Under the pieces are notes generated by a model. It was given only the letters and a program-made list of their open reading frames with translations. It did no database searches and was not told the origin of the DNA. Of a stretch of DNA of 64,000 nucleotides, positions 40,107-54,942 are shown piece after piece. This DNA is from an uncultured Kaistella sp. (lineage in GTDB: Bacteria; Bacteroidota; Bacteroidia; Flavobacteriales; Weeksellaceae): assembly GCA_964532055.1 (NCBI GenBank), contig CAZHFE010000001.1:3576-67575 (forward strand), written 5' to 3'. Every line of letters starts with the position of its first letter. The stretch's first letter is position 1. The position numbers and the translations under genes were made by a program.

Positions 40107-40115
40107 CATTTTTTT

Positions 40116-40188
40116 GCGAAAATAGCTCAGCTGGTAGAGCGCAACCTTGCCAAGGTTGAGGTCGCGGGTTCGAACCCCGTTTTTCGCT
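40116..40188 (+). tRNA. tRNA-Gly (GCC)
   Basis: GCGAAAA/TTTTCGC acceptor stem, TTGCCAA loop, GGGTTCGAACCC. Confidence 0.96.
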
Positions 40189-41831
40189 CATATTTCTACC
40201 TGCCTTGGTGGTGGAACTGGTAGACACGCAGGACTTAAAATCCTGTGTCCGCAAGGACGTACGGGTTCAAGTCCCGTCCGAGGTACATAGCGGGAGTTGG
40301 TTGAAAAATCATCTCCCGTTTCTTTTTTCAACCTCTGGAAATCTCGATTATACCTGCAAAGTAATGAGATTGCTTCATTAAAAGGAAGGGTTCGGAATTT
40401 ATTTTTTTCAAAAATTAATTTTTCTGTGAAGTACGAACCCAATAAAAGTACTTTCGTTTCTACAGTAGCATTTTTGTAAAAATCATCGAGATTTGAGATA
40501 ACCGTAAGTCCGAAAGATAGAAGTTTATTTAAATCATCATTGTAGTTACTATATTCGTTTTTTCTTAACTTCAAATCGACCAGCTCTGACTTTTTTATTT
40601 CCGACATTTTTAAATAGAGGCTGTCATCAATAATCCCATTTATATTTTTATTTACAAGTGCTATTTGCTCTTTTTCTAACTGGCATATTTTTTCCTCTAT
40701 ACTTTTTGATAGTCTAATGCTTTCTTGAAGAGTTTCTTGGTATTCATCAATTAGAATTTCTTCAAATAACTTTAGAATGCCTTTAGAGGGTTTTGCTTTA
40801 GAAAGAACTCTATATAATTCTTTGTGAATTATTTCAGGGGAATACTTCTCTCCACAGTTGTTTGAACATCTATATGAAGAATGAAATACCTTTTTCTGTT
40901 TTCCATTATTACTCTTACTTCCGTAGAGTGGGCTACCACAGCAAGCACATACCAAAAACCCACTTAAAGGAAAGTCAGGGTTTTTAGGTCGTTTCTTTTT
41001 AATCATCCTGTTTCTGCCTTTTTTGATGTCCTGCACCGTGTTAAATAATTTTTCCGGGATGATTGCTTCGTGCAGCCCTTTTTGCAAATTGTAAGGAGGT
41101 ATTTTATGCTTTTTAAGGTCAATATAACCTGCGTACAAAATATTACTCAGGATTATGCTTAATGACGATTCAGAAATATTTAGTCCTTCTGCCTTATATT
41201 TTTTTACCAACTCTGCCTGTGTATATAAACCAGTCGAGTAATCTTCAAATAACTGTCTTATTAGAGGTGCTTTTTCATTTGGTACTATGCCTTTTTTTAA
41301 AGAACCATCTTCATTAATTCTTCCCCACTTATAACCATTCGGGGGAGTTTTAATATATCTTCCCTTCTTCATTGCTCTTCTTTCCCCAAGCCTTGTCCGT
41401 TCGTTAATGATCGCCCTCTCATATTCAGCAAAAGTAAACTTCAAATGCATTATCATTCTACCTTGTGCAGAATCAATATCATTAATCCATTCATCAACGA
41501 AATTAACTTCAATACCTAATTTATTGATGTCTTCATAAGCCTCAACACCTGTCTTAACCCCTCTTGTAAATCTATCGGCTTTTTTAGTTAAAAAGAGGTT
41601 AATTTCACCTTTATTTTCTTTCAAAAATTTATGCGCTTTTTCAAATTGAGGTCTTTTAAAGTCCTTTCCTGAATAAACATCTACATAAGTATCTAAAAGA
41701 ATAATGTTATTGTTTATACAAAAATTTTTAATGCTTTCTTTTTGGCTTTCAAGTGAAGTACCATCTTCTTGGCTAACAGAACTAACACGTAAATATCCTA
41801 CCGCTGTTTTATATGTTTTTTTCTTCTCCAT
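40188..41831 (-). CDS. Large serine recombinase (integrase); C-terminus reads through attL antisense to tRNA-Leu
   Basis: GYLRVSS catalytic motif, SGKDFKRP, KADRFTR, AEYERAIINERT, recombinase domain, zinc ribbon CACC...YRCSNNC, coiled coil. Confidence 0.95.
   Translation of the reverse strand: MEKKKTYKTAVGYLRVSSVSQEDGTSLESQKESIKNFCINNNIILLDTYVDVYSGKDFKRPQFEKAHKFLKENKGEINLFLTKKADRFTRGVKTGVEAYEDINKLGIEVNFVDEWINDIDSAQGRMIMHLKFTFAEYERAIINERTRLGERRAMKKGRYIKTPPNGYKWGRINEDGSLKKGIVPNEKAPLIRQLFEDYSTGLYTQAELVKKYKAEGLNISESSLSIILSNILYAGYIDLKKHKIPPYNLQKGLHEAIIPEKLFNTVQDIKKGRNRMIKKKRPKNPDFPLSGFLVCACCGSPLYGSKSNNGKQKKVFHSSYRCSNNCGEKYSPEIIHKELYRVLSKAKPSKGILKLFEEILIDEYQETLQESIRLSKSIEEKICQLEKEQIALVNKNINGIIDDSLYLKMSEIKKSELVDLKLRKNEYSNYNDDLNKLLSFGLTVISNLDDFYKNATVETKVLLLGSYFTEKLIFEKNKFRTLPFNEAISLLCRYNRDFQRLKKETGDDFSTNSRYVPRTGLEPVRPCGHRILSPACLPVPPPRQVEI
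40202..40285 (+). tRNA. tRNA-Leu (TAA); integration target
   Basis: GCCTTGG/CCGAGGT acceptor stem, CTTAAAA loop, variable arm, GGGTTCAAGTCCC. Confidence 0.96.
40271..40300. other. attL site
   Basis: tRNA 3' end gtcccgtccgag-GT-acatagcgggag. Confidence 0.75.
40291..40328 (+). terminator. Element-supplied terminator after the tRNA cluster
   Basis: cgggag-t-tggtt-gaaa-aatca-t-ctcccg followed by tttctttttt. Confidence 0.65.
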
Positions 41832-41985
41832 CTTTTATTTTTGTTTTTACAGAATTGGCTTTAAACTCTTTGATAACTATCTTAGCCTGTCTTTGGAGTT
41901 CCCAAAGAATTTTTTCTATCTCATCATCAGAAAAATTTTCTCCTGCGTTTTGGAGGGTTTTTCGGGCTTTCTCCTTTGTAACCAT
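41809..41985 (-). CDS. 58-aa ORF immediately upstream of the recombinase (not in ORF track)
   Basis: MVTKEKARKTLQNAGENFSDDEIEKILWELQRQAKIVIKEFKANSVKTKIKDGEEKNI*. Starts 4 nt after the upstream stop and overlaps the LSR start by 23 nt. Confidence 0.65.
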   Translation of the reverse strand: MVTKEKARKTLQNAGENFSDDEIEKILWELQRQAKIVIKEFKANSVKTKIKDGEEKNI

Positions 41986-41988
41986 CAC

Positions 41989-42786
41989 TTATAGTTTTAT
42001 ACTTGTCTCTAATTCATCATTAATGGCAATATCAATCTTCTGAAAACTCCAGCTAATGATTGTCTCCATTACTTCTTCATTGAGAAGTAAACTTTGGGAA
42101 TTTTCAATAAACCTTATATCCCCTTCTTTCAGATGAAACTTGAGGTACTGATAATCGCCCGTTTTAAGAAAGTAAAGCAATAGCATTTTATTTTTATCCT
42201 CTAACGGGTTTTGTATTTTAAAATCTGTTGAAAGAGCATTATTAGGATATTCTAAAGCGATATAATCCTCCAGTTTGAAAATTGTGTGAACAGGAAACCT
42301 TCCTTTAGAAAACCATCTCATATAGGCTTCAAACGAGTATAATCTTGCGTGTCCCTCAATAGGAATATATAAGACTTGGGGCATTGAAAACAAAGTTTTA
42401 ATAACCTCCAACTTAAAAAGTGAAAAATCTTTTATAGATGATTCTAATAATGTCTTTCTCGCATCCTTTAAAATATTTATGGGAATCCCAAACTTACGAG
42501 CATCAAAAACTATATTGAGCCAAATATTCTCCAACCTATTAAATCTTCGTATTTTTCCTTTGTCTCCGTCCTGTAATTTAATGACAGCTTGAGCGAGCCA
42601 ACTATTAACAATTCTTGCAGGATGTTCTGGTTTGATTCCTGTTTTATTTTCCTGCAAACAGTAGTTTAATACATCGTTTCTCAAAAAATGAACGACCTCT
42701 AATGGCAAATCTCCATAAACATCCAATACTGCTTTTTCGCTAATACTTTTTTCCTGTTGTCTTGCTTTCTCAATATCAAATCCCAT
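41989..42786 (-). CDS. Protein with MerR-like HTH region
   Basis: ARIVNSWLAQAVIK...IRRFNRLENIWLNIVFDARKFGIPINILK resembles the MerR wHTH pattern; TATATTTG promoter at 42803-42810. Confidence 0.55.
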   Translation of the reverse strand: MGFDIEKARQQEKSISEKAVLDVYGDLPLEVVHFLRNDVLNYCLQENKTGIKPEHPARIVNSWLAQAVIKLQDGDKGKIRRFNRLENIWLNIVFDARKFGIPINILKDARKTLLESSIKDFSLFKLEVIKTLFSMPQVLYIPIEGHARLYSFEAYMRWFSKGRFPVHTIFKLEDYIALEYPNNALSTDFKIQNPLEDKNKMLLLYFLKTGDYQYLKFHLKEGDIRFIENSQSLLLNEEVMETIISWSFQKIDIAINDELETSIKL

Positions 42787-42883
42787 AATCGAAATATTTT
42801 TACAAATATATAAATTTTACAATTAAATGTAACAAAAATTTTATTTTATTTCTTTTCGATGTATTATGAATTGTTTTCTACAA

Positions 42884-42913
42884 AAAAGACTTTCTAATAA
42901 TAAGAAAGTCTTT
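42884..42913 (-). terminator. Terminator after qatD
   Basis: aaagacttt(t)ct-aataata-agaaagtcttt. Confidence 0.65.
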
Positions 42914-42948
42914 AAAATGAAATAGTACTTTTATTAAGTGTAAAGTTC

Positions 42949-43680
42949 TTATTTCAAACAACTAATTAATCTTAAGAAGTTAGATGAAATAATATTTTCT
43001 ACGTTGTAACTCGAGGCATTCCATTCTTGAGCCAAATAATCGATTACTGGGGATGTTTCTCCCGGATTTAAAGGTAAACCTTTCTCAACTATAAATGGAC
43101 CATCTGTTTCTGTTAAAATAAACTCTTTAGGTATTTTTGATATGATTTTCCTTCCAGAGACAGATTTTATCATTGCCGGATTAACAGAGAAAAAATAACC
43201 TGCTTCTCTAATGGCTTCAATTAAATCTAATCTTCCTGAATACCAATGAAAAATTGCATATTTTATATTATATTCTAACAATAGATCTAAAACTTCTTTC
43301 TCCGCTTTTCTGGAATGAATGCTCAATATTTTTTTCTGCCCTGAAATAATCTTAAGTATTTTAGAAAAAGTATCTAATTGAATATCTTTTGTAGAAATCC
43401 CTTCTTTAGAAAAGTCTAAACCAATTTCTCCTATATACGATGTTTTACCAACGTTCTTAATGAATAAATCAAACTCCTTTTTATGCGAATCGGCCATCAA
43501 AGGGTGCATTCCTAAAGCTAATCTTATTCTTTTTAATGATTGAAAATGAGCGTATCCCATTTCAAAATGGCTTGGCAAATTGGTCATTGCTAATACTGAT
43601 ATATTAGCTTTTATGCAATCCTGCAAAACTTTTCTTGGATTCTGATATAAATCTATATGGCAGTGTGTATCAATAATCAT
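42949..43680 (-). CDS. qatD: TatD-family nuclease, Qat defence subunit D
   Basis: DTHCH, LGMHP, IGEIGLD, SIHSR, FHWYSG, LTETDGP; ATGA overlap with qatC. Confidence 0.9.
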   Translation of the reverse strand: MIIDTHCHIDLYQNPRKVLQDCIKANISVLAMTNLPSHFEMGYAHFQSLKRIRLALGMHPLMADSHKKEFDLFIKNVGKTSYIGEIGLDFSKEGISTKDIQLDTFSKILKIISGQKKILSIHSRKAEKEVLDLLLEYNIKYAIFHWYSGRLDLIEAIREAGYFFSVNPAMIKSVSGRKIISKIPKEFILTETDGPFIVEKGLPLNPGETSPVIDYLAQEWNASSYNVENIISSNFLRLISCLK

Positions 43681-45044
43681 CTTATCCCTAACTCAGACTT
43701 TACAAATCTATTTCCTTTATCTCTAAATAATTGTAAAACCTCTTCTTTAGACCTTAATACCATATCCGCATACTCTTCAAGATCAGCAATCTCAATATTT
43801 CCATTCACTAATAAATCTCTTTTCATATTTTCCAAAGAAATATTTCTTTTTAAATAGCTGGTTAATGCAGGCAGATCTTTACTGTAATTTCGTGAAGTGG
43901 CATTAGTAATAAAATTGCCATAGTGGTCTTCATTATCTAATGTTGCTTTATTTAGAGCAGCCCTTCTATAAATGCAAGGCATACATATTCCACATTCTTG
44001 TACTCCAGTTCTTACTTCCCAATTTTGTTTCCTTCCTCTTTTACCACAAGAAACCGAATCTTGAAAAATACTTTGTATAAATGTTTGGTTTGTACATTCA
44101 ACAAACATTTCCCCCTTAGTTTTAAATGTATAAGGGTTATGTATTCTTGTAGATACTCCTAAATCGGCAAGTAATTCTTGAGTGTTTTTCAATACATAAG
44201 GATGCGTTGTTCTAGTACTTAAAGAACTCACTCTTGATGGAGTTAGTGGATAATTGATTGAGATTGTGCCGTTCTCAGGAATTATCAAATCATCAGTAGG
44301 GGACAAATAACAACCCAAACCAATGAAAAAGAAAGAACGACTACGGTAATTATTTTCGACATTTATTTTATTGCCATCACTATCTTTTCTTAACAATGCC
44401 AATTTTGATTGCACCCAATATATTTTGTCTTGATATTGGGCCATCAAATGCCTTAATAGCTTTCTTTGGTCTCCATTTGGACCTGGGGATTTTGAATCAA
44501 AATGAGATACCAAAAGTATTCTTTCATTATTTCCTAGCTTCTCCAATTCATCGATAACTCCAATTAAAGAATCCAAACCACCCGAAAATAAACTTACAGA
44601 TTTGATGGAGTCTCTGTCGTAAGTTGGAATTTTTCTTCTGTTTGTACGTGGTTGAAACAAATTAACTTCTTCTATTTCTCGGAAATAAATCTGCCAATTA
44701 TCACCTGTTAAGAAGTCTAAAACTTGTTTCAATTTTTCTTCTTTCCCACTCCAAACAGCTAAGTTATTCACTGGAAATTCCACTTCTATATCTCTTGCCC
44801 AACCATCATTTGAATAAATAGCCCGACTAAGCAGGTTATCTACACCATAAACTATTGCAGACACAAGAAAAAAATCAAATTTTACAGAAGTAAAATCAGT
44901 CGTAAAATCAAAAACCCTTTCATAACCTAAGAATGATAATGGAACTTTTCTATTCACTCCATTATCCATATAACAAAGTTGCAAATCTGAGAACTTGCCA
45001 TAATCTGCATCCTCAATAACTACGTTTACTCTCATATTATTCAA
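43677..45044 (-). CDS. qatC: QueC-like protein, Qat defence subunit C
   Basis: SLFSGGLDS PP-loop, RSRSFFF, IPENG, TRTTHP, SCGK...CGICMPCIYRR. Confidence 0.9.
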   Translation of the reverse strand: MNNMRVNVVIEDADYGKFSDLQLCYMDNGVNRKVPLSFLGYERVFDFTTDFTSVKFDFFLVSAIVYGVDNLLSRAIYSNDGWARDIEVEFPVNNLAVWSGKEEKLKQVLDFLTGDNWQIYFREIEEVNLFQPRTNRRKIPTYDRDSIKSVSLFSGGLDSLIGVIDELEKLGNNERILLVSHFDSKSPGPNGDQRKLLRHLMAQYQDKIYWVQSKLALLRKDSDGNKINVENNYRSRSFFFIGLGCYLSPTDDLIIPENGTISINYPLTPSRVSSLSTRTTHPYVLKNTQELLADLGVSTRIHNPYTFKTKGEMFVECTNQTFIQSIFQDSVSCGKRGRKQNWEVRTGVQECGICMPCIYRRAALNKATLDNEDHYGNFITNATSRNYSKDLPALTSYLKRNISLENMKRDLLVNGNIEIADLEEYADMVLRSKEEVLQLFRDKGNRFVKSELGIR

Positions 45045-45777
45045 ATACGGTTAATATATCTTGCTGAATATTTTTAACAACCCTATCGGCTTCGTCAGAA
45101 CTCCAATCAATGTTTTGTAGTGGATTTCTTTTGTGCATATCTCCAACTCTTTCAACTATAAAATTTTTTATTTGGTTGAAAAGGTTGTTACAATCACTTT
45201 CACTCTTATTTTTTATTAAATTTTCATAGAACCACTTTGATAAAAGCTCATTAATGTAATATCCAAAATATTTTACTATTACATCTTCCAATGTATTTGT
45301 GGTAAAAGTCTCCTGTAATAAAGTTTGTACTTCATCAATGGATTCAGCTTGCCCCATTAGTTCTTCTAATAATAATCTTGTGGCTTCTTTTGCCGCATTA
45401 TCATCAATTGAAGTTGCATTACCGGAACAATACTCAATCAAATGATTAATTACATCGCCAACCGTTTTATTATCAATATCGGTTAAACCAGTAGATTCAA
45501 GAGTTTCTCTAATATTATTACCCGAACTGATAAACTTTGAAAAGACTCCTCCGATTTTCTTTGCAGTTCTGATACTGCTTCTTCCTCCTGCTTTTGAACC
45601 GCCACGCCCTCCTGTTGATGCTCCGCCCAATGCTGAAACAAAATGCCCCATAATGTTCTGTAGCTTCTGAGCTGGAAGAACAGAAGAATCACAATTTGAG
45701 GTAAGCGAAGAACTAAGCGTACCCCAATTCGGAACCATTGAGTGTTTTACATCAGAAAATGATTTAGATGTTCCCAT
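45037..45777 (-). CDS. qatB: Qat defence subunit B
   Basis: MGTS N-terminus, Gly-rich GGASTGGRGGS segment, position between qatA and qatC. Confidence 0.8.
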   Translation of the reverse strand: MGTSKSFSDVKHSMVPNWGTLSSSLTSNCDSSVLPAQKLQNIMGHFVSALGGASTGGRGGSKAGGRSSIRTAKKIGGVFSKFISSGNNIRETLESTGLTDIDNKTVGDVINHLIEYCSGNATSIDDNAAKEATRLLLEELMGQAESIDEVQTLLQETFTTNTLEDVIVKYFGYYINELLSKWFYENLIKNKSESDCNNLFNQIKNFIVERVGDMHKRNPLQNIDWSSDEADRVVKNIQQDILTVFE

Positions 45778-45779
45778 TT

Positions 45780-47678
45780 CTATTTTTTTAGATTAAACGC
45801 TTTACTTGCTCTTGATTTTCCATCTTTGAAATAATCATTCAAAAACGTTCCAATTTCAGGTTCTGATTTAAAGTCTGCCAATCTCGTAGCAACCGCAGGT
45901 TCAATATCTGATACGCTGATTATTTTAAGAGTTTCCATATAGTGATAAACTGCATTTTCTATTTTATCTTCTGTCATTACATTGAAAATGTCATACAACC
46001 GCTTTTGCTGAGGATTCCTTTTTAAATTTGAAGATAAAAGATTGAAAAAAGCATCTTTTTCAATATCGCTAAAAGGTTGAAATTTTTCATATAGTAGAGA
46101 TTTTGTAACTGTTGCCGTCATATTATCGGGTAATAACTCATTAAACAATGCCCTTACTACTGGTGGAATCATACTCGTTGCAGTGATAGAATTTTCTAAT
46201 TTATCACGGGCAATCCAATAATAATCCCGTAAATCAACTCCTGATAACAATGGTTCTATTTGAAACCATTTTATTATTTTGGGTTTACTCCATTCTTTGA
46301 AATCAGTATCTTTTATTTCCAAAAGAACATCCTCAATGCCTTTATCCTTACATATAGATTCTATTTCTGTTATTTCTTTTGGCATTCCGTCTTGGGAAAT
46401 TTGCCACTCAAATAATTTTTTGAACAGCTTGGGTTCTGAATATTCAAGTATCATCATTTTTGCAAGAACAGCATCATTAAAACTTTGTAACGATGCAACT
46501 TCGGCAAGTCTTTTTCTAATTGTATAAGTATTTAGAAACCGTTTAATCTGTCGGGGATTTCCATACAAACTATTTGTAATCAATGGTACTAATGCCGGAA
46601 TCGTAATTACATTATCTTTAACTTTTCCAAATTCCTCTGCTTCTAAAATCTTTTCAAAATTTGATAATCCAAATGCAGAATATTTATTCGTTAACCTATA
46701 CTTCTGAAATTCAGCAAGTACGTTTTCAAATTTGGTATTATCAATCTCTTTTTTACAGATAAGCATTGATATATAAGTTTCGACTTCTGATTCCGACAAT
46801 CTCGGTAACGAATATGGAAGCTGAATTAATTTTTCTAAATAATCAATAACAATTCGGTTGTTATCTTCTTCGATTTCTTTATTATTTTTGTATTTATTTT
46901 CAATGGCATATTTCACTATTCGAGGGTCTGCTCCAATAATGAATGCTGTTTTGGGTACGTTTAGGAAAAGTTTAATTGCTTCAAGGTTCTCAATAATTCT
47001 TTCGGGGCTACATCTGTCTAAATCATCAATAATTACAACCAATCTTTTAAAGTTTGTGGCTTCTAAGAGTTCAGCAAAATCTTTTCTAAATTCTGCCACC
47101 GCATTAGTGGAATTTTTATCTTCCTCTTTACTTTCTTTTATAAAGGCTTTAAATGTTTCCTGACCTTCTTTGGAGTTAAGTTTTTCTATTATTTTTTCAG
47201 GATTATCTCCCCATTCGGTTAGCTTTTGAACGGCAAAAGGAAGTAAACTAATGCCTCCTGTAAAGTATGCAGAAACAGCGGGTAAGGCAACATTCTTCAT
47301 AACCATACCTGCTCCACGTATCCAATCAATAGATTTCCAAAGTTTCTTTGCTTTTTCTTTTATCGTATCCTTTATTTCGGCTGAAATCTTTTTATTGTCT
47401 TCCAATTCCTTAAGAATTGAATTTAGCAATGCGGCTTTAGCATCATCATATCCTTCAAAAGTCCATCCATTAAAGTATATGCAGAGAGAATCCTTATCAT
47501 CCTCCTTATCAAATTCTTCTTTTACTATTTGTAAGATACTGGATTTCCCACTTCCCCAATCGCCAAAAACGCCTATTGTAATCGGCAAAACAGACTCGTC
47601 ATTGATTATATTGATTAACAAATCTGCGTGTACTTTAAAACCTAAAAGGTCTTCGGAGGTTTCGTTATCTGCCCACAT
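45780..47678 (-). CDS. qatA: KAP-family P-loop NTPase, Qat defence subunit A
   Basis: MWADNET, IGVFGDWGSGKSS, FNGWTFEGYDDAK, IIDDLDRC, YLEKLIQ, GNPRQIKRFLN. Confidence 0.92.
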   Translation of the reverse strand: MWADNETSEDLLGFKVHADLLINIINDESVLPITIGVFGDWGSGKSSILQIVKEEFDKEDDKDSLCIYFNGWTFEGYDDAKAALLNSILKELEDNKKISAEIKDTIKEKAKKLWKSIDWIRGAGMVMKNVALPAVSAYFTGGISLLPFAVQKLTEWGDNPEKIIEKLNSKEGQETFKAFIKESKEEDKNSTNAVAEFRKDFAELLEATNFKRLVVIIDDLDRCSPERIIENLEAIKLFLNVPKTAFIIGADPRIVKYAIENKYKNNKEIEEDNNRIVIDYLEKLIQLPYSLPRLSESEVETYISMLICKKEIDNTKFENVLAEFQKYRLTNKYSAFGLSNFEKILEAEEFGKVKDNVITIPALVPLITNSLYGNPRQIKRFLNTYTIRKRLAEVASLQSFNDAVLAKMMILEYSEPKLFKKLFEWQISQDGMPKEITEIESICKDKGIEDVLLEIKDTDFKEWSKPKIIKWFQIEPLLSGVDLRDYYWIARDKLENSITATSMIPPVVRALFNELLPDNMTATVTKSLLYEKFQPFSDIEKDAFFNLLSSNLKRNPQQKRLYDIFNVMTEDKIENAVYHYMETLKIISVSDIEPAVATRLADFKSEPEIGTFLNDYFKDGKSRASKAFNLKK

Positions 47679-48012: not shown

Positions 48013-48043
48013 ATTAATTTACCTTTATATACAGACGGGTTAT

Positions 48044-48748
48044 TTATAAATATTTTAATAATTCTTCTGCCAACCTAAATACTGTAGTCGATGATTCTTC
48101 TTTCGCTGGATTTTTGTGGTCAAATTGTTCAAAGTTTCTTGTAGCTCTTGTAATAGCTAAATCAACTCTTTTCTTTTTTGTTTTCGTATCAATTCCGTCT
48201 AATAACTCAAAAAAATCCTCACTCACTTTTTTAGTCCCGTTTCCGTCATATGTTACGCCGAACGGTTTAAGTAATTCATTTATTTTGTCGTTGTAATCAC
48301 TCCTGTGCATTCCTCCTCCTTGATGGTCGTCAAAATGAAGAATTAACCAATACTCAAAAGATTGATTAGAATAAGCTACATTAAAATTTTGAGCTTCTGC
48401 TATTTGGATTGCACGATTAAAATCATTTTCAGTAAAGTCGTCTTTGTCAAATACACACCAAACTTGGTCATATTGCTTTTCGCCCGCTAATTGTTCTGCT
48501 CTATTGACCAACGATATTGTGTTATACCCTTCGCCAACTGATTTTACCGTTGCAGAAGAAAGTCTAAACTGATTGAAATAGGAAGGCTCTGTATTTTCAC
48601 CTTCACAAACAATCAATATCGAAGGTTTTTCAATCAATTCAGCATCTGGTCTTTCCAAATTTGGTTCAATCCGCCTTTTAGCTTTAAGTTGTTCCTTATG
48701 TTTTTGTTTAGCCGCTATTTGCTCAGCTCTTTTGTTCTTCATTTTCAT
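48044..48748 (-). CDS. RloB-family (AbiLii-like, TOPRIM-like) protein
   Basis: LIVCEGENTEPSYF, VWCVFDKD, AYSNQSFEYWLILHF, STTVFRL. Confidence 0.9.
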   Translation of the reverse strand: MKMKNKRAEQIAAKQKHKEQLKAKRRIEPNLERPDAELIEKPSILIVCEGENTEPSYFNQFRLSSATVKSVGEGYNTISLVNRAEQLAGEKQYDQVWCVFDKDDFTENDFNRAIQIAEAQNFNVAYSNQSFEYWLILHFDDHQGGGMHRSDYNDKINELLKPFGVTYDGNGTKKVSEDFFELLDGIDTKTKKKRVDLAITRATRNFEQFDHKNPAKEESSTTVFRLAEELLKYL

Positions 48749-50057
48749 ATTGCGGCATATTAAAATTTAGGTTATCAAAAAAGCCTAAATATGGAATAGC
48801 ACCATATTTACCTCTAATGTAATTATCTTCAAAAGGTTCATTTTTCTTAACTTCATCAGACTTAAAGTTTGCTAAAGAATATAGTTTAGCCTCACCGTAT
48901 TTATCTTTATTCGTAAACCAAATTTGGTCTCTTCTAAATAAGCCTGAACTTAATAAGTTAGTATCGTGAGTGTTGAAAATTAATTGAGCGTTTTTTGTAT
49001 TGAATTCTTTTGAGTTAAACAAAGAAACAATTTTACACACTAAATTGGGATGTAACTTTGAATCAAGTTCGTCAACAACTAAAGTGTCGCCGTTTTCAAT
49101 GACATCTAAAATAGGACCCGTTAAAGCAAAAAACTTTCTTGTCCCCGAAGATTCATCTTCATCAAGAGAAAAATTCACATTGCCCAATAATTGCTTATTT
49201 AAGTCATACTTTTTATGGGTTGTCAATATATCAGCAAAAAACTGAGTGTTTTCTTCTTTCATTTTCCTAATAATTTCATCCTTCATCTCTTTAGGCATTC
49301 CTGTAGGCAATTTATCAATATCCAATTTTTGAATCTTAATATCCTGAATCCCTAAGTCAGCAGCTTTTAATAATTCAAGAATTTTTGCTTTATGTGTTGG
49401 AATTTCGGTTTTGCCAACAGTAAAACCTTGATATCCGATTTCATCTAAACCTGAAAGGAATTTCAGTTTTTTAAACCAATCAACGACTGCAATAGCTATT
49501 TTTTCATTGAATTGTGCTGCAACTGAAATGAAAAGAGCATTATCTCTTACAAGCCCTCCTTTTATTACTGCTGAACCTCTTGTGAATTTTCTGCTATGAG
49601 TTTCAAATTGATTTCCATCTCTGTAAAACAATTCAATCTCCTTTGTTTTAGGTTTATGATATAGCCATTCTGAAACAATATTTTCTTTAGTCGCTTCAAA
49701 ACCATAACGAAATAATTCTCCATTAAAAAGAAAAATAATTTCAAATTCAGATGGCTCATTTTCGGTTTCTTTACTTAAACGAAATGGTTCAACTTCAATG
49801 CTTTCTCCTTTTTGAGTTTCTTTTGAACTATTAATCACAAAATATCTCATAAAAGCAATAGCATCTAAAAATTTACTTTTTCCACTTGCGTTTGCTCCAT
49901 AGATTACTGCACTTTTGAGTAATCTGTAATTAAATGTTTGGTCTTCAAAAACATTCTCTACTTCTCGTGTTTCTTTATCATAATTAGAAGCAATTAAACT
50001 CAAAGTTGCTTTATCCTTAAAGATTCTGAAATTTTTAACTGAAAATTGTAGAAGCAT
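48723..50057 (-). CDS. RloA/AbiLi-like ABC-type ATPase
   Basis: IYGANASGKS, ESSGTRKFF, LVVDELDSKLHP, QLIFNTHD, RRDQIWF, YIRGKYGAIP. Confidence 0.92.
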   Translation of the reverse strand: MLLQFSVKNFRIFKDKATLSLIASNYDKETREVENVFEDQTFNYRLLKSAVIYGANASGKSKFLDAIAFMRYFVINSSKETQKGESIEVEPFRLSKETENEPSEFEIIFLFNGELFRYGFEATKENIVSEWLYHKPKTKEIELFYRDGNQFETHSRKFTRGSAVIKGGLVRDNALFISVAAQFNEKIAIAVVDWFKKLKFLSGLDEIGYQGFTVGKTEIPTHKAKILELLKAADLGIQDIKIQKLDIDKLPTGMPKEMKDEIIRKMKEENTQFFADILTTHKKYDLNKQLLGNVNFSLDEDESSGTRKFFALTGPILDVIENGDTLVVDELDSKLHPNLVCKIVSLFNSKEFNTKNAQLIFNTHDTNLLSSGLFRRDQIWFTNKDKYGEAKLYSLANFKSDEVKKNEPFEDNYIRGKYGAIPYLGFFDNLNFNMPQYENEEQKS

Positions 50058-50361
50058 AATAATTTCGCTTTTGTTAAATTTTATTACAAAGATAATACTT
50101 ATTTATTTCGCATATACAAAATAAATGTAATTTTTAACAAATTTACGATTTAAAACGCTTTTATTTTACGAGTATTAACAAAATAATAATTTCCATAGAG
50201 GTGTTTTTATTATAAGATATTTTTAATACTTTATGATGGTTGATGTTTAATTTTGCAAAAATTCAGGTGTTTTTCAAGTGGAAACTCAAAGCCAAATTTA
50301 AAATCTCAACTTAACAAATATATCTCTTTAAAAGTTTTGCTACCTTTCTAATCATTCATAA

Positions 50362-50395
50362 AAAATGCTACTTATGTCTAAATAAGTAGCATTTT
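50362..50395 (-). terminator. Terminator after the OB-fold membrane gene
   Basis: aaaatgctactta-N8-taagtagcatttt. Confidence 0.75.
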
Positions 50396-50415
50396 ACTAT
50401 TATCAACTCAATTCA

Positions 50416-51672
50416 TCACTCCCACAACTCGCAATTTTTAACAACCACATCCGTCAGAGAACGTCCTGAGCAAGTTCCGATAATCTGAACCTTCTGACCT
50501 TTATTAAGTTGGGAAAGAACTTTATTATTTTTATCCGAGAAATAGCAGTTCACACTTTGCAGGTAGTCGATTTTCAGAGAAACATAAGGGTCATCCAATA
50601 CATCCTTTCCAATTGTTCCTACAACTCCTTTAATCAGTAGTCTTTTTCCTTTATATTGTCCATCTGCTGAAACTTCATTAGCTTCATAGGCATTGTAAAG
50701 TTCCGATGCTGATACTTCCATATCAACCTTTGGAAACAGCTTGCTGTTAGGGTCAACTTCTTTCAGCTTGGTTAAAAATCCGTCTTTGGTGGCAAGATAA
50801 GGATAGATATAACTTCCTTTGTCATTCCAAGAAGAAAGACCTTTATTTTTAGCCTCGTAAAGTGCTTCTAAATTTTGCTTATCCGGGTTCATTAAAGCAA
50901 AGAAAGGGGTTAAATCATAGTCGTATTTGATTTGCTGTGAGTTCATATTCGCATCATACGTCATTCCTTTTACTCCAGATGCATTGAATTTGTTTTTATA
51001 ACGGACAAAGACATCAATAATCTCTTCCGGCAATCCGCCATTTACAGTTGGCATAGCCAAAGCACCACACTTAACCACAAAATCCATTTTGTTTTCTCCG
51101 TCTTCGGAGGATGTTACCTGTTTTTCCAAATCTGCATTAATAGCATAATTCTTAGACGAAATATTAGTAATTCCATTGGTTATAGCGTTGAGAACCGGCA
51201 GATATTCCGAACTCACAACTTTTTCAGTCACCAGCTTAGTATAAACCGGATTTTCTTTTAATGCGGAAAGCAGTTTCTCTCTGTTGGCTTTCAACTCCGG
51301 AGAAAGAGAAGCAATATTTTTAGCCGATTCGTCAAGATAGCTTTGATAAGGGTTTTGATTGACAACCTCTTCGGTTTTTTCTTTTGTAATCGAAGTGGAA
51401 GCAGGAAATTTTGTTTTGTTGGCTGTTATTCCAATCAAAGCCAACAGCACAGCATAAGAAACATACCGGACAGCCCGACTGTTCCATTGCTTTAATTTTT
51501 GTTTTAAATTTTCCGAGACCGGAGGAAGGATAACCACTCCTAAAATTGCAGAAATTAATCCTGCGAGCACTTCTTTCTGTGCAATCATTCCGAGTGCGGC
51601 AATGATGAACAATGCACCGATAATAAACTTTACGATTCTCATAAGACTGATATTTTTAAAATTAAACTTCAA
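50416..51672 (-). CDS. Membrane-anchored protein with C-terminal tRNA_anti-like OB fold
   Basis: Three N-terminal TM helices; C-terminal VSASELYNAYEANEVSADGQYKGKRLLIKGVV...LNKGQKVQIIGTC. Confidence 0.8.
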   Translation of the reverse strand: MKFNFKNISLMRIVKFIIGALFIIAALGMIAQKEVLAGLISAILGVVILPPVSENLKQKLKQWNSRAVRYVSYAVLLALIGITANKTKFPASTSITKEKTEEVVNQNPYQSYLDESAKNIASLSPELKANREKLLSALKENPVYTKLVTEKVVSSEYLPVLNAITNGITNISSKNYAINADLEKQVTSSEDGENKMDFVVKCGALAMPTVNGGLPEEIIDVFVRYKNKFNASGVKGMTYDANMNSQQIKYDYDLTPFFALMNPDKQNLEALYEAKNKGLSSWNDKGSYIYPYLATKDGFLTKLKEVDPNSKLFPKVDMEVSASELYNAYEANEVSADGQYKGKRLLIKGVVGTIGKDVLDDPYVSLKIDYLQSVNCYFSDKNNKVLSQLNKGQKVQIIGTCSGRSLTDVVVKNCELWE

Positions 51673-51768
51673 TTTTATTCTCTTTCAGCCCCAGAAAGAT
51701 TCATAAAACCGGAAACCGACCTTTAATAAAATGAGTTTCCAATTTTAAAGATTGTTTATTGGTTTTCC

Positions 51769-51784
51769 TTACGGAAATCCGTAA
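51769..51784. repeat. TTACGG-N4-CCGTAA palindrome, copy 2
   Basis: ttacggaaatccgtaa, extended by flanking tattggtt/aaccaata. Confidence 0.75.
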
Positions 51785-51819
51785 AACCAATAAAAAAAGG
51801 CGTGAGGACTTAACCAAAC

Positions 51820-51931
51820 GCTTCAAAGGCATCGCCAAACGCCCTATAACAATATGGAAAGCCCCACACCAAGTGTGGTAGCGGTTTTCCATATTCTCTG
51901 TTATAATTTGAAATTGGCGATTTCTTGAAGC
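51820..51931 (-). ncRNA. Structured RNA candidate: five nested stems
   Basis: gcttcaa/ttgaagc, atcgccaa/ttggcgat, tataac/gttata, aatatggaaa/tttccatatt, ccacac/gtgtgg. Strand inferred from the flanking genes. Confidence 0.6.
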
Positions 51932-52220
51932 AAGAATATGATTACACTACTTTGTTTTATCTATATTAAATTTACTTTTCTTATAAGTTTTATTTTTTAA
52001 CTTCTGCTAATATAGAAATTTCCTTCCATAAATTAAATCGGTTGCTTTAAAATTATATTCCTTTAAAAATTTTCGCATCAGCGAAAATTCCTCTATTCAT
52101 GGTATTTTCAACGGGTTTGTTGAAATATTTTACATTCAAAATTCGGTTGTTTTTCCTGCGATATTTCCGTTCAAAATTCCTTTTGGTGTTATCCCTTTGC
52201 TTTTAAAATTTGAAGGAATT

Positions 52221-52898
52221 TTAAACCTCTATTTGCGCTTGAAAAAATCTATCATATAATATCAACACTTGAGATGAGGTAAATTCACAGCCTCTGCTGG
52301 TCTTGAAACCGCTTTTATTCAGCTCATCAGCAATCTTTCCGTAACTGTTTCCGGCATTTCGTAATGAAACAATGAGGGCAGTTGCCTTACGGTTGTTCTC
52401 ATTTTGAAGAGCCTTTAACCTCATCGCCTCGCTTCCCATTTGTCTGGCTTTGGCAGTTAGGTTATTTGGAGTTCCAAGTTTTACGCCTTTCGCTTTGAGT
52501 TCCTGAAGTGCAGCAATGGTTCTTTTGCTGATGAGTTCCCGCTCTTCTTGTGCAAGAACTGCCATTATTCCGATTGTAATCGAATTGGCTTCCGGCATAT
52601 CACAGCATTTGAAATCTATATTGCTATCCTTCAATAAAAAGATAAACCCAGCATTTCTGCTGAGTCTATCAAGTTTAGCGATGAGCAAGGTTGCACCTTC
52701 ATTCTTACTTTTCTCTATGGCTTTCAGGAGCTGAGATCTGTTATCATTCTTGCCACTCTCAATTTCCTCGAATTCGTCTATCAGAATATCATCATCTTTG
52801 AGATAATTTCTTACCATTGATTTCTGGGCTTCCAATCCTAAGCCGGAATTTCCTTGTCTCTGAGTTGACACTCTGTAATAGGCTATGTATTTTTTCAT
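52221..52898 (-). CDS. Small serine recombinase (resolvase/invertase family)
   Basis: YIAYYRVSTQRQ, ESGKNDNR, AKLDRLSRN, AQEERELISKRT, GVKLG, C-terminal HTH. Confidence 0.93.
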   Translation of the reverse strand: MKKYIAYYRVSTQRQGNSGLGLEAQKSMVRNYLKDDDILIDEFEEIESGKNDNRSQLLKAIEKSKNEGATLLIAKLDRLSRNAGFIFLLKDSNIDFKCCDMPEANSITIGIMAVLAQEERELISKRTIAALQELKAKGVKLGTPNNLTAKARQMGSEAMRLKALQNENNRKATALIVSLRNAGNSYGKIADELNKSGFKTSRGCEFTSSQVLILYDRFFQAQIEV

Positions 52899-53041
52899 TT
52901 TTAGTAGTTGGGTTGGTTTGTAATGGTGCTTGAACGCTCGTTTATGAAATTCAACGGCAGTGATTTCCTATGCAAATATTTAATTTTCAGGGTCTGATTC
53001 TCTTAAGCATGCCTCATTTGCCTCGTTATATGCACAAATTG

Positions 53042-53785
53042 TCACGAAAATTCAATGTGTTTTTTGTTTATTAAATCCACCTCTTCATTTAGCAAGTCGC
53101 TTGGAACTGTCCAGTAGGAAAGGCTTTTGTAAGTCCAGACCCTGTAAATTATATCCTCATATTCAACTAAATTCCCAAAGTACCTTATATGAGAAACTAT
53201 CTTCAAAAAAGTGGAATTATTGCCGAATTTCTCACGGATTGAATAGAAATGAGGATTGTTTTGCATCGTTTTAGCAAACGTCCATTCCATACGTTCTAAA
53301 GTTTCCCCTGCGAACTGGTCAGTCAGATTGAAATGACCTCTGAGTTTGTAGATGTCTTCACTCCAGTATTTGCGTTGGATGTTTTGGTCAATACCTGTTT
53401 CATCTTCTACAGGGATTTTGTTGGCTCTTAAAAAGTCTGCAAAGATGTGACGGTAGCAAAACTCGTTGCCTTCTCCATATCCGAGCAGGACAACCTTAGT
53501 GGTATTCTCTTCTTTGCAGAACTGTCTGAGGTCAGTCAGTAGTTTTTCTACTCCCTTTCTTTCCACCTTTTTCCGGTAAAGTAGATTACAGGCTAAAAAA
53601 TCTCCTGCTCTCTGATTATCATACATTCTGAATATACTGAACCCTACCAGCTTTCTGACCTTCTCCGAGTTTCTGAAACTTCCATAGACTTTCCCTACAA
53701 CGCTTACCAGTGTATAGCCTTCATAGGTTTTTGTGTTTAAACTCTCGAAACTTTCAGTAACTATCTGTAAATCTGCATTTTTCAT
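53042..53785 (-). CDS. DUF488-like domain fused to an uncharacterised WTFAKTM..PH.Y domain
   Basis: VVLLGYGEGNEFCYRHIFADFL resembles the DUF488 LLCxE..FCHRH motif; C-terminal WTFAKTMQNNPHFYSIR...SYWT. Confidence 0.55.
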   Translation of the reverse strand: MKNADLQIVTESFESLNTKTYEGYTLVSVVGKVYGSFRNSEKVRKLVGFSIFRMYDNQRAGDFLACNLLYRKKVERKGVEKLLTDLRQFCKEENTTKVVLLGYGEGNEFCYRHIFADFLRANKIPVEDETGIDQNIQRKYWSEDIYKLRGHFNLTDQFAGETLERMEWTFAKTMQNNPHFYSIREKFGNNSTFLKIVSHIRYFGNLVEYEDIIYRVWTYKSLSYWTVPSDLLNEEVDLINKKHIEFS

Positions 53786-53840
53786 TACTTAAAGATACAA
53801 AAATTTTCGCATACGCAAAAATAAATCACTGATATACTGT

Positions 53841-54035
53841 AAGTTACAATCAGGATGTCAAGTAACTTTATAAAAACTGCCTAACACTACTGCTGGTGGT
53901 TTGAATGTTTCTGACTCTTCCCATACTTCCTAACCCTATCTACCTTTCTCCTCTCTGCTATATAATTAATTTACTCTGTACTGTACAGAGTTCACAGAGT
54001 AAGGTGTAGGGGATATTTTCTTTTCCCCTATATAC
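53841..54035. other. Inverted-repeat cluster, candidate origin (oriV/oriT)
   Basis: aagttac/gtaactt (53841-53868), actctgtac-t-gtacagagt (53973-53991), tagggga/tccccta (54007-54030). Confidence 0.35.
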
Positions 54036-54061
54036 CCCATTACTACTGTACACATTTTTTC

Positions 54062-54814
54062 CTAATCAATTTTTTTAAATTTCCGCTTCAAATGAACATT
54101 GATTTTGATGAGGTCTGAGCCTTTGATTAAAATTCCTCTCGCTGATTTTATGCAATACTGTTTATTGAAACTGATGTGCTTCATAAATTCTGCACTCACT
54201 TTGTTTCCCCTATCATCTTCTAAATAAAAATGGTTTTTCTTAATCGAAATAAAGTTGTTTTTTAAAGCCTCTTTTTTCAAGTTCTCTGCTGTGGTAACAG
54301 AAACGCCCAAACACTTGGCAAAATACCTCACAGGAAGGTCGTAAAAGTTTTTAGGATAAGCATAGGTATTCATACTGGGTATTCCATTAATTACACCCGA
54401 CACCTTATTTTTCTTATCCGTAAATTTTTTTGAGTTCCTGTAAAATCCTATAAGTGCAGCAGCACAAAGTCCACGAAAATCTTTAAAATCATTTCTATCA
54501 AATTTTAGAGCAGTTTGTGAACTTAATCTGTATTGCCGTTTTAATTGAACATAACTTACTACCCTCAACGATTGTTTTTTGGAGTTAAAAGAAAGCCATC
54601 TTTTTCTCAGCATCCAATCCAGAGAACTCTTAAAGGTTTTTACATTAATCCCTATTTCTTTTGCCTATATTTTATGACTGTCGGCTTTCACAGACAAATG
54701 ACCGCTGGATATGCACTTTAGAAAAATGTATATTTTAAGATGATTGAGTTTTCGTCTGGTAATAGCAAATTGTATTAACCCAATAGGAATTGTTGTGTAA
54801 GCCCCCTTCATCAT
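54062..54814 (-). pseudogene. Rep-like/HTH protein (250 codons) interrupted by an in-frame TAG at 54665-54667
   Basis: Frame is open from ATG 54814 (MMKGAYTTIPIGLIQFA...) to 54062 except for TAG at codon 50. HTH-like segments AKEIGINVKTFKSSLDW and YFAKCLGVSVTTAENLK. Confidence 0.65.
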
Positions 54815-54942
54815 AACCTTGCGAAATTTTGAGGGGTTTGTGCTAATGGGTATAAGCCTGCCTCTTCCAAGATGGGCTTCAGGTCATACAATCTCTTTAA
54901 ACCTTCATAAAATTGGTTCGTAATGAGTTTCGCTACGGGTAC
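54811..54942 (-). other. Orphan 3' exon-like segment: alternative LSR C-terminus used in the excised form
   Basis: In frame with the LSR across the core: VP-VAKLITNQFYEGLKRLYDLKPILEEAGLYPLAQTPQNFARL*; the stop overlaps the next ATG. Confidence 0.7.

What the first reader, a model, noticed from the sequence alone, without database searches (positions are those of the whole stretch)
40188..54942. Split integrase: the att site lies inside the LSR gene and swaps its C-terminus (tRNA-antisense tail versus far-end tail)
Seen: integrated, the LSR reads ...STNSRYVP and then 30 aa (RTGLEPVRPCGHRILSPACLPVPPPRQVEI) that are simply the antisense of tRNA-Leu(TAA), stopping at the 3' end of tRNA-Gly (547 aa). 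Across the predicted attP, the same frame continues at 54936-54814 as an uninterrupted, amphipathic-looking 41-aa VAKLITNQFYEGLKRLYDLKPILEEAGLYPLAQTPQNFARL (558 aa total), whose TGA overlaps the next ATG. Established: attP inside the int gene, altering the C-terminus on integration, is known for some tyrosine integrases (e.g. Myxococcus phage Mx8). Inference: here a large serine recombinase uses the swap as a directionality, activity or stability switch, and the integrated mRNA is antisense to a host tRNA. I am not aware of this being characterised for Bacteroidota LSRs.
Basis: partly seen in the sequence, partly recalled or inferred. Interest (0 to 1): 0.88.

Follow-up and report, generated by a model that had tools for sequence, protein, structure and literature searches.

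The report
Serine integrase gene split by integration
A 14.7-kb phage-defence island sits at the end of a tRNA gene, and its integrase gene is cut by the island's own insertion, so the complete enzyme with a conserved 41-residue tail can only be encoded by the excised circle; this layout is shared by a whole clade of such integrases but has never been tested in the laboratory.

Summary
The large serine recombinase (LSR) ORF 41831..40188(-) leaves the island after codon 517. It then reads 30 codons of antisense tRNA-Leu(taa).

Joining attL to attR at the shared GGTAC gives a 558-aa ORF. Its 41-aa tail is encoded at 54936..54814(-).

Homologues at 25-87% identity almost all end in antisense tRNA or tmRNA. 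The tail is a conserved motif, (S/T)NQ-F-Y..L..LYDLKP.L, found joined to several full-length LSRs and to many LSR fragments.

In a sister element from another host, homology starts exactly at the core. The first 10 tail codons are conserved as DNA (the P' half-site). The rest is conserved only as protein (pN 0.15, pS 0.76).

Two features are new here:
- The last ~15 LSR codons encode, on the other strand, an intrinsic terminator for the tRNA.
- The tail's stop codon overlaps the start of a far-end gene, which is broken in this window.

The proposed directionality or stability switch is untested. The same layout was noted in 2011 for Dehalococcoides ssrA islands. No circle or empty-site junction was found, but only assembled contigs were available.

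The parts
40025..40286 (+). Host tRNA cluster: Leu(tag) 40025-40107, Gly(gcc) 40116-40189, Leu(taa) 40202-40286. The 3' end of tRNA-Leu(taa) is the B' half of attB.
   Evidence: ARAGORN. My reading of the acceptor stem from the sequence: the core covers tRNA positions 70-73 plus one base, so the tRNA sequence is unchanged by integration.
40282..40286 (.). attL core GGTAC, the only identity shared with attR. By attP symmetry the crossover dinucleotide is probably GT at 40283-40284 (inference).
   Evidence: My reading of the junction sequences: the inner arms of attP are symmetric (CGCTA..TAGCG).
40188..41831 (-). Large serine recombinase in its integrated form, 547 aa: 517 element-encoded residues plus 30 residues of antisense tRNA-Leu (40280..40191), stop at 40190-40188.
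   Evidence: Pfam Resolvase, Recombinase and Zn_ribbon_recom. Match to the A118 integrase C-terminal domain, 4kis.
40289..40331 (+). Element-borne intrinsic terminator for the tRNA operon: hairpin 40289-40320, then GTTTCTTTTTTC. It is encoded antisense within LSR codons ~503-515 and also forms the P half-site of attP.
   Evidence: Fold -17.6 kcal/mol, z -4.0 on the + strand, against -10.5 on the LSR strand. The same feature is present in all 26 related loci examined, with unrelated stem sequences.
41809..41988 (-). Conserved 59-aa ORF that overlaps the LSR start; candidate accessory or directionality protein (inference).
   Evidence: Conserved in L001, L002, L133 and L134. No family match.
41989..42786 (-). 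265-aa backbone ORF of unknown function, upstream of the 59-aa ORF.
   Evidence: An ORF of similar size (265-289 aa) occupies the same position in L133, L134, L001 and L135; homology was not tested. No family match.
42949..47678 (-). Cargo: QatD, QatC, QatB, QatA defence system.
   Evidence: PADLOC QatA 1.4e-113, QatC 2e-92, QatD 1.6e-61, QatB 9e-9.
48044..50057 (-). Cargo: AbiL-type defence pair (AAA_21 ATPase AbiLi plus RloB-like AbiLii).
   Evidence: PADLOC AbiLi 1.7e-102, AbiLii 1.6e-30. Pfam.
52221..52898 (-). Small serine recombinase (225 aa), part of the far-end backbone.
   Evidence: Pfam Resolvase. 54% identical to the corresponding gene of the sister element L139.
54062..54814 (-). 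First far-end gene (250 aa, unknown function). Its ATG overlaps the tail's stop codon. It is broken here by an in-frame TAG at codon 50 (54667-54665; Trp in the sister element).
   Evidence: tblastn 77.6% identity over 250 aa in a single frame. Translations.
54814..54936 (-). Far-end tail of the LSR: 41 codons in frame across attP, stop at 54813-54811.
   Evidence: Conserved motif. Versus L139, codons 11-43 give pS 0.76, pN 0.15, with differences by codon position 9/3/16. AF2 predicts helices 519-534 and 537-542 at pLDDT ~70-77, after a disordered linker 503-518.
54915..54942 (-). P' half-site of attP: GTACC CGTAGCGAAAC TCATT ACGAACC. It resembles the tRNA arm with 5 extra bases before the GAACC motif.
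   Evidence: The pattern GTAC-N17-WCGAAC occurs once in the window (0.04 expected). In L125 the arm equals the tRNA arm plus a 5-nt insertion. Synonymous sites are conserved here (pS 0.13).
54938..54942 (.). attR core GGTAC.
   Evidence: Homology to the sister element L139-L142 starts here.
54945..54985 (+). Native terminator of the tRNA operon, displaced 14.7 kb by the island (B half of attB).
   Evidence: Fold -15.5 kcal/mol, z -3.9, followed by a T run. L139 carries a different host hairpin at the same place.
54989..55996 (-). Host flank; I read the 335-aa product as dihydroorotate dehydrogenase (pyrD-like) from its translation, with no family search run.
   Evidence: ORF and translation. 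The name is my own reading of that translation.

Best explanation
Window 40287-54937 is a 14.65-kb integrative defence island. It belongs to a family that inserts at the extreme 3' end of tRNA or tmRNA genes using a large serine recombinase (LSR) whose attP site lies inside the 3' end of its own gene.

Shown:
1. In the chromosome the LSR ORF is cut after codon 517 and runs into antisense tRNA-Leu(taa), adding 30 host-dictated residues.
2. Joining the two island ends restores a 558-aa ORF. The first ~9 tail codons are the P' half-site, conserved as DNA. The next ~25 are a conserved helical motif under purifying selection.
3. The tail's stop codon overlaps the start of the first far-end gene.
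4. The last ~15 LSR codons before the crossover form, on the opposite strand, a hairpin plus T-run. This replaces the tRNA operon's own terminator, which integration displaces to attR.

Inferred mechanism: the full-length, tailed LSR can be made only from the excised circle, or from a tandem array, so it is the enzyme that carries out attP x attB integration. Any excision must be done by the tail-less, junk-tailed enzyme made from the chromosome. The recombination reaction therefore rewrites its own catalyst. It also couples the far-end operon to LSR transcription and translation only after circularisation.

I think the tail most likely modulates integration-phase activity: either directionality, by acting on the zinc-ribbon/coiled-coil region, or protein stability. 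That step is not shown.
For: Anatomy.

Clade-wide severed ends: 24 of 34 related loci end in an ARAGORN-called tRNA and 3 more in tmRNA. The protein ends are listed.

Boundary: homology between the window and sister element L139-L142 begins at GTACCC, and upstream each host has its own terminator hairpin.

Tail is coding: against L139, codons 11-43 give pS 0.76 and pN 0.15, with differences by codon position of 9/3/16. The other five frames are closed. Codons 1-10 give pS 0.13, as expected for an att half-site. In the marine class pN/pS is 0.21.

Tail is widespread and found joined to the LSR: about 50 of the top 150 representatives align through it. These include full-length P0188, P0217 and P0251 and P0017 and P0019.

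att geometry: the P' arm equals the tRNA arm plus a 5-bp insertion. This matches the 5-bp shift of the zinc-ribbon-domain (ZD) motif between attP and attB described for LSRs (PMC3783163).

Terminator.

Structure: a disordered linker (503-518) precedes moderately confident tail helices.

The ATGA overlap between the tail and the next gene is conserved in the sister element.
Against: No excised circle or empty site was detected. Only Logan contigs of four metagenome runs at about 10x depth were available, and they show only the integrated form.

The first far-end gene carries a nonsense codon, so this copy may be decaying and immobile.

Most tail copies in databases sit behind truncated LSR remnants in tandem arrays, or in short called ORFs, not behind intact LSRs. 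Selection could therefore act in a context other than a free circle.

Similarity of the window tail to the distant marine class alone is weak (55 of 5000 shuffles score as well).

A conserved 59-aa ORF overlapping the LSR start could be a conventional directionality factor, which would make a tail switch unnecessary.

The function of the tail is not tested by anything here.
Confidence: 0.75

Rival explanations
1. The tail is simply the enzyme's native C-terminus, or a bridge that couples far-end gene expression to circularisation as in Tn916-like joints. It is needed for general folding, stability or operon coupling, and it has no role in choosing between integration and excision. Directionality would be set by a separate factor such as the 59-aa ORF.
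For: The tail's stop codon overlaps the start of the 250-aa gene in the window and in L139-L142. A conserved small ORF overlaps the LSR start. The tail is joined to the body by a disordered linker.
Against: If the tail were needed for general activity, the chromosomal enzyme could not excise the island. The tail's sequence is conserved far more than mere coupling would require.
Confidence: 0.35
2. The tail region is expressed on its own in the integrated state, as a small protein or as a leader peptide for the 250-aa gene. Expression would come from read-through of host transcription (pyrD lies on the same strand). Its continuity with the LSR frame would then be incidental.
For: Gene callers find 48-66-aa stand-alone ORFs with host-supplied ATGs in other hosts: P0210, P0321, P0318, P0151.
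Against: In the window an in-frame TAA immediately precedes the core. No ATG, GTG or TTG occurs before codon ~18 of the tail. The host-side sequence differs between hosts, so no conserved start or ribosome-binding site exists. The frame is in register with the LSR in every uninterrupted form.
Confidence: 0.1
3. The overlap is a neutral by-product of compaction. The far-end sequence is conserved only as DNA (att site, promoter or operator) and the tail peptide has no function.
For: The first 10 codons are indeed conserved at the nucleotide level (pS 0.13). A 41-codon open stretch alone is only a p~0.05 event.
Against: Beyond the P' arm, synonymous sites are saturated while the protein is conserved (pS 0.76 against pN 0.15; codon positions 9/3/16). 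The motif LYDLKP persists among tails attached to LSRs that are only 24-29% identical to the window's over their whole length.
Confidence: 0.07
4. This particular copy is a fixed relic. The architecture is real for the family, but in this genome the island no longer moves, so the swap is history rather than a working switch.
For: There is a nonsense codon in the first far-end gene. Only the integrated form is seen in four runs.
Against: The LSR ORF, both att arms, the tail and the terminator are all intact. The read data cannot detect rare excision.
Confidence: 0.3

Closest known systems
Dehalococcoides ssrA-specific genomic islands, serine recombinase DsiB (McMurdie et al. 2011, PMC3146451)
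   Same: A ~540-aa serine recombinase sits at the island edge. Its 3' end always overlaps attL, and its stop codon lies outside the island, in the target RNA gene or in a neighbouring island. Tandem islands occur and a second small serine recombinase is present. The authors speculated that the gene is fully functional only on the circle.
   Different: The target there is tmRNA in Chloroflexota; here it is a tRNA in Bacteroidota, although some relatives of the window's LSR also target tmRNA. That paper judged the overlapping part divergent and reported no conserved far-end tail, no embedded terminator and no selection analysis. Sequence relatedness of DsiB to this LSR was not tested here.
Myxococcus phage Mx8 IntP/IntX and archaeal SSV1-type integrases (from my own knowledge, not checked here)
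   Same: attP lies inside the integrase ORF, so integration alters (Mx8) or splits (SSV1) the integrase gene.
   Different: Those are tyrosine recombinases with different chemistry and different att architecture. Here the enzyme is a large serine recombinase with simple sites.
Integration-dependent immunity of mycobacteriophages BPs and Brujita (from my own knowledge)
   Same: attP lies inside a coding gene, so integration swaps a C-terminus and thereby changes the protein's behaviour (there, removal of a degradation tag).
   Different: The gene cut there is the repressor, not the integrase. The integrase is a tyrosine recombinase.
Canonical large serine integrases (A118/LI, Bxb1, phiC31, SPbeta) and their directionality factors (RDFs) (PMC3783163; PMC12286644)
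   Same: The domain set is the same: resolvase, recombinase domain, and zinc ribbon with a coiled coil. The sites are short. The ZD motif lies 5 bp further out in attP than in attB (seen here for P' against the tRNA arm). C-terminal extensions have been suggested to occupy the RDF site on the second DNA-binding domain.
   Different: For the LSRs whose papers were read here no attP inside the integrase ORF is mentioned, and the literature searches found no characterised case; this is my reading, not an exhaustive check. No known LSR changes its own C-terminus on recombination.
Tn916-type circularisation-dependent expression (from my own knowledge)
   Same: Excision joins the element's ends, so transcription from one end runs into genes at the other end.
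   Different: Here an ORF itself crosses the joint and is translationally coupled to the next gene. Transcription across the joint was not tested.

Membership tests
Large serine recombinase (serine integrase) | N-terminal resolvase-type catalytic domain with the nucleophilic serine | tested here: met
   PF00239 at 1.2e-28, residues 10-159. S17 and R15 in YLRVSS are invariant or nearly so across 38 homologues. PDB resolvase and TP901-1 matches.
Large serine recombinase (serine integrase) | C-terminal recombinase domain plus zinc-ribbon domain with an inserted coiled coil | tested here: met
   PF07508 and PF13408. Invariant Cys295, Cys298 and Cys322. Match to the A118 integrase C-terminal domain 4kis over residues 166-433. 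AF2 long helices 350-397 and 403-428.
Large serine recombinase (serine integrase) | Short att sites, with the ZD-binding motif 5 bp closer to the centre in attB than in attP | tested here: met
   The P' arm equals the tRNA arm plus exactly 5 inserted bases before (T/A)CGAAC in L125, L114, L104, L129 and L106. The window shows the same spacing. The rule comes from PMC3783163. The P against B half was not resolvable.
Large serine recombinase (serine integrase) | Catalyses attP x attB integration and factor-dependent attL x attR excision | not testable with these tools
   Contig-level read data show only the integrated form.
Integrases with attP inside their own gene (Mx8 IntP, SSV1 type) | The crossover lies within the integrase ORF, so integration changes or splits the protein | tested here: met
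Integrases with attP inside their own gene (Mx8 IntP, SSV1 type) | Tyrosine recombinase fold and chemistry | tested here: not met
   The protein is a serine recombinase. The resemblance is functional, not membership.
DsiB-type ssrA/tRNA-end-targeting island recombinases | The serine recombinase gene's 3' end overlaps attL, and its stop codon lies in the target RNA gene or in the next island | tested here: met
   Window. 27 of 34 related loci do the same. Cases of the stop lying in the next island.
DsiB-type ssrA/tRNA-end-targeting island recombinases | Sequence homology to DsiB, with an adjacent small recombinase DsiA | not tested
A small serine recombinase exists, but 10 kb away at 52221-52898.

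The most novel reading that the evidence does not exclude
In this LSR clade the recombination reaction itself toggles the enzyme between two forms. The circle encodes LSR plus a conserved helical tail that is competent for, or biased towards, integration. The chromosome encodes a tail-less enzyme competent for excision. Directionality would then be written into the substrate state rather than supplied by a separate directionality factor. In addition, the same ~45 bp serves at once as coding sequence, att half-site and antisense terminator for the target tRNA.
Probability: 0.3. Interest if true: 0.85.

Novelty: new variant of a known kind. Interest (0 to 1): 0.68.

Why it matters
How large serine integrases choose direction is an active question, both for mechanism and for genome-engineering tools. 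All characterised systems use a separate directionality protein. A natural family in which integration rewrites the integrase's own C-terminus offers a simple test: compare three protein forms on two pairs of sites, and see whether direction can be encoded in cis.

The work also gives a clade-wide, predictable rule for finding attP, attB and both island ends from the LSR gene alone. The markers are an LSR end that runs into a tRNA, the hairpin, a tRNA-like arm with 5 extra bases, and the tail motif. This is useful for mining defence islands and new integrase/att pairs.

The antisense terminator shows how an element compensates for cutting a tRNA operon off from its terminator. It is also an instance of one DNA stretch under three simultaneous constraints.

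Tried and rejected
1. Reads. Four metagenome runs hold the locus, but only as Logan contigs at about 10x depth. No attP or attB joint was found. This is a low-power null, not evidence against excision.

2. Empty site. A look-up of the flanking pyrD-like product found nothing on record.

It was useful for the tRNA-end rule, but no far ends lay within the 10-kb flanks.

4. The viral-contig scan with the attP pattern gave 0 hits.

5. I first read the 50 marine hits of the attP pattern as free attP sites. They are tandem arrays in which an old, truncated LSR end is fused to the next unit's tail.

6. An HMM of the marine tails scored the window tail only weakly (55 of 5000 shuffles as good). The exhaustive search and the sister element gave the decisive evidence instead.

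7. The simple terminator scanner missed both hairpins because of its loop and mismatch rules. Folding and controls replaced it.

8. The first AF2 run gave pLDDT below 50 for residues 482-558. A tail-rich alignment raised the tail helices to about 70-77. Contacts of the tail could not be read out, so nothing is claimed about where it docks.

9. The Riemerella '10K island' paper concerns a tyrosine integrase and is irrelevant. The tycheposon preprint says nothing about the LSR gene overlapping att.

10. Pfam, PHROGs and NCBIfam gave no annotation for the backbone ORFs.

Full report
**1. The observation**

The window holds three tRNA genes on the + strand: Leu(tag) 40025-40107, Gly(gcc) 40116-40189 and Leu(taa) 40202-40286. 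An ORF on the - strand, 41831..40188, encodes 547 aa. Pfam finds Resolvase, Recombinase and Zn_ribbon_recom domains in it. A profile of the family matches the C-terminal domain of the A118 serine integrase, 4kis. It is therefore a large serine recombinase (LSR).

After ..STNSRYVP the ORF reads 30 residues that are the reverse complement of tRNA-Leu(taa). It stops at a TGA that overlaps the end of tRNA-Gly.

The pentamer GGTAC occurs at 40282-40286 and again at 54938-54942. Joining the two there keeps the reading frame and adds 41 residues encoded at 54936..54814, for a total of 558 aa. The tail's TGA overlaps an ATG in TTATGATGA.

**2. The island and its borders**

A hairpin followed by a T run lies just beyond attR at 54945-54985 (-15.5 kcal/mol, z -3.9). 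Next comes a 335-aa host gene that I read as pyrD-like from its translation. I read the hairpin as the native terminator of the tRNA operon, now 14.7 kb away from it.

The cargo consists of a QatABCD system and an AbiL pair. G+C is slightly lower inside the island, about 0.29-0.33 against about 0.36 outside.

The best boundary evidence is a sister element in another host (L139-L142). It was found through a 49-aa called ORF that is 72% identical to the tail. Aligned with the window's attR, the homology starts exactly at GTACCC. Upstream, each host has its own unrelated A-run plus hairpin.

**3. A property of the clade, not of this copy**

Homologues at 25-87% identity align only up to about residue 517. 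Most then end in peptides such as GLEPxRP or GIEPT, which are antisense tRNA T-arms.

Of 34 related loci, 24 have an ARAGORN-called tRNA overlapping the LSR's 3' end. The targets are Leu, Met, Arg, Asn, Ala, Glu and Phe. Three more overlap a tmRNA gene. The hosts are mostly Bacteroidota, with some Verrucomicrobiota, Ignavibacteriota, Rhodothermales and Chlamydiae MAGs.

**4. The tail is a real, translated, conserved module**

*Uninterrupted forms exist.* P0017 (L002) and P0019 (L001) continue past the core into SN..Y.E.L-type tails. An exhaustive HMMER search used residues 438-558 of the composite. About 50 of its 150 best representatives align through the tail. They include full-length LSRs P0188, P0217 and P0251, and close tails P0210, P0182, P0282, P0318 and P0321.

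*A motif emerges from their alignment.* It reads (S/T)N-Q-(F/L/I/V)-(Y/F)-x-x-(L/F/M)-(K/R)-x-(L/I)-Y-(D/E)-L-(K/R)-P-(F/I/V/L)-(L/I).

*Window against L139.*

| Tail codons | pS | pN | Reading |
|---|---|---|---|
| 1-10 | 0.13 | 0.09 | conserved as DNA (att half-site) |
| 11-43 | 0.76 | 0.15 | conserved as protein only |

In codons 11-43 the differences fall 9/3/16 by codon position. All other frames are closed.

*The marine class.* Pooled pN/pS is 0.21.

*Structure prediction.* With a tail-rich alignment, AF2 predicts a disordered linker at 503-518 and helices at 519-534 and 537-542 with pLDDT about 70-77. An earlier run without tail-bearing rows was uninformative.

*No own start.* In the window the tail has none: an in-frame TAA directly precedes the core. 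Its translation therefore needs the LSR frame upstream. That exists only in the circle or in a tandem array.

**5. The att sites fit serine-integrase geometry**

The pattern GTAC-N17-(A/T)CGAAC occurs once in the window, at the predicted P' arm (0.04 expected).

In marine relatives the P' arm is identical to the tRNA arm for 16 nt. It then has exactly 5 extra bases, and then TCGAAC where the tRNA has TTGAAC. The window shows the same spacing.

This matches the rule of Rutherford et al. 2013: the zinc-ribbon motif lies 5 bp nearer the centre in attB than in attP (PMC3783163).

The inner arms of the reconstructed attP are symmetric (CGCTA..TAGCG, my reading of the sequences). This points to GT (40283-40284) as the crossover dinucleotide, which is an inference.

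**6. A new feature: an antisense terminator inside the LSR's coding end**

On the tRNA strand, the 45 nt that follow tRNA-Leu(taa) fold into a 13-pair hairpin followed by GTTTCTTTTTTC. The energy is -17.6 kcal/mol with z -4.0. On the LSR strand the same stretch folds to only -10.5, because G-U pairs are used.

All 26 related loci examined have a 10-14-bp hairpin plus T-run at this place, with unrelated stem sequences. In 24 of the 26 it is more stable than any other 45-nt window in the antisense of the LSR gene. The median is 7 T among the 10 nt after the stem.

It maps to the conserved but structurally disordered ..KKxxG..FS..S.. segment.

I infer that the island replaces the terminator it displaces. 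The same DNA is also the P half-site and coding sequence.

**7. Coupling to the far end**

The tail's stop codon overlaps the ATG of a 250-aa gene in the window and in L139-L142. In the contig that carries P0182, the next called gene starts at the last base of the tail ORF.

In the window this gene has TAG in place of Trp at codon 50. This copy may therefore be decaying.

Part of the backbone is shared with the sister element. At the far end the tail, the 250-aa gene and a small serine recombinase recur, along with part of a 209-aa gene. The sister's HTH and DUF488 genes found no match in the window. At the LSR end the small ORF that overlaps the LSR start recurs in L133 and L134. An ORF of similar size to the window's 265-aa ORF sits just upstream in L133 and L134.

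The 59-aa ORF is conserved and overlaps the LSR start. It is an alternative candidate for a directionality factor.

**8. Tandem arrays**

A metagenome scan with the uninterrupted attP pattern gave 50 marine loci. Most are not free attP sites. They are junctions in which a truncated old LSR end is fused in frame to the next unit's tail. L125 is an example: it has an intact LSR at the tRNA and a duplicated LSR C-terminal fragment plus tail at the far end.

Some units lack an LSR altogether (L095, L129, L106).

In two close relatives a tyrosine-integrase element has since inserted between the LSR and the tRNA.

**9. What is not shown**

No excision product was seen. Only assembled contigs of four runs were available.

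Nothing tests whether the tailed and tail-less enzymes differ. One logical argument can be made. Any excision must use the chromosomal, tail-less form, yet the tail is under purifying selection. This argues for a role after excision, in integration, stability or coupling. It does not say which.

PMC12286644 notes that C-terminal extensions of some LSRs may occupy the directionality-factor site. That makes a cis-acting role plausible but unproven.

**10. Prior knowledge**

McMurdie et al. 2011 described the same layout for DsiB of the Dehalococcoides ssrA islands and speculated along the same lines. Literature searches found no experimental characterisation for any serine recombinase.

The tyrosine-recombinase analogues (Mx8 IntP, SSV1) and integration-dependent immunity are cited from my own knowledge.

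**Verdict**

The structural interpretation is supported and extends to a clade. The functional switch remains open. This is a new variant of a known kind.

Noticed in passing
window 54665-54667 (within 54062-54814, - strand): The gene that follows the tail is a 250-aa ORF interrupted by an in-frame TAG at codon 50. The sister element L139 has Trp there. It is otherwise 77.6% identical over its full length, and no read variation was seen at this site.
   Followed up: yes
window 40289-40331 (+); also L003-L031, L104, L125: A hairpin plus T-run immediately 3' of the target tRNA, encoded antisense in the last ~15 LSR codons. It is present in all 26 loci examined, with unrelated stems. It appears to be an element-supplied terminator for the tRNA.
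   Followed up: yes
window 42949-47678 and 48044-50057: The island's cargo is two anti-phage systems: QatABCD and AbiL (AbiLi/AbiLii).
   Followed up: partly
window 41809-41988 and 41989-42786 (- strand): A conserved 59-aa ORF overlaps the LSR start. It is preceded by a 265-aa ORF with no family match. The 59-aa ORF is conserved in L001, L002, L133 and L134. A ~64-aa ORF sits in the same place in L135 but was not aligned. It is a possible directionality or regulatory protein.
   Followed up: partly
window 52221-52898 (- strand); L139 8791-9450: A second, small serine recombinase (225 aa) belongs to the conserved far-end backbone. This is reminiscent of the DsiA/DsiB and CcrA/CcrB pairs, but it is not adjacent to the LSR.
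   Followed up: no
L095 6032-9900; L129 722-4065; L106 3632-6975; L084, L091, L132: Marine Flavobacteria-type contigs carry arrays of 0.9-3.3-kb units at tRNA-Leu(taa). Each unit is bounded by the terminator/P-arm, GTACC, the P' arm and the tail. Many have no LSR, so they are either decayed elements or units mobilised in trans.
   Followed up: partly
L133 11620-13032; L134 7058-8244: In the two closest LSR relatives (80-87% identity), a tyrosine-integrase element sits directly after the LSR. This leaves only a few tRNA-derived codons (VPQTGL.., VPQTD..). I read it as successive use of the same tRNA by two kinds of integrase.
   Followed up: no
L138 285-1976 and 10001-11644: One 37-kb contig has one LSR reading into tRNA-His. 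It also has a second LSR in the opposite orientation with an unrecombined attP and a contiguous tail, followed by a T4SS coupling protein and a relaxase. The arrangement is unexplained.
   Followed up: partly
L019 8206-8570; L021 5864-6257; L032 11509-11920: Some members of the same LSR clade read into the 3' end of tmRNA (ssrA) instead of a tRNA. This links the family to the Dehalococcoides ssrA islands.
   Followed up: partly
marine tails, e.g. L125 3024-3185; P0151, P0124: The marine tails are longer (53-59 aa) and share a second conserved element at the extreme C-terminus (..(L/I)PYRP). The window's tail lacks it.
   Followed up: no
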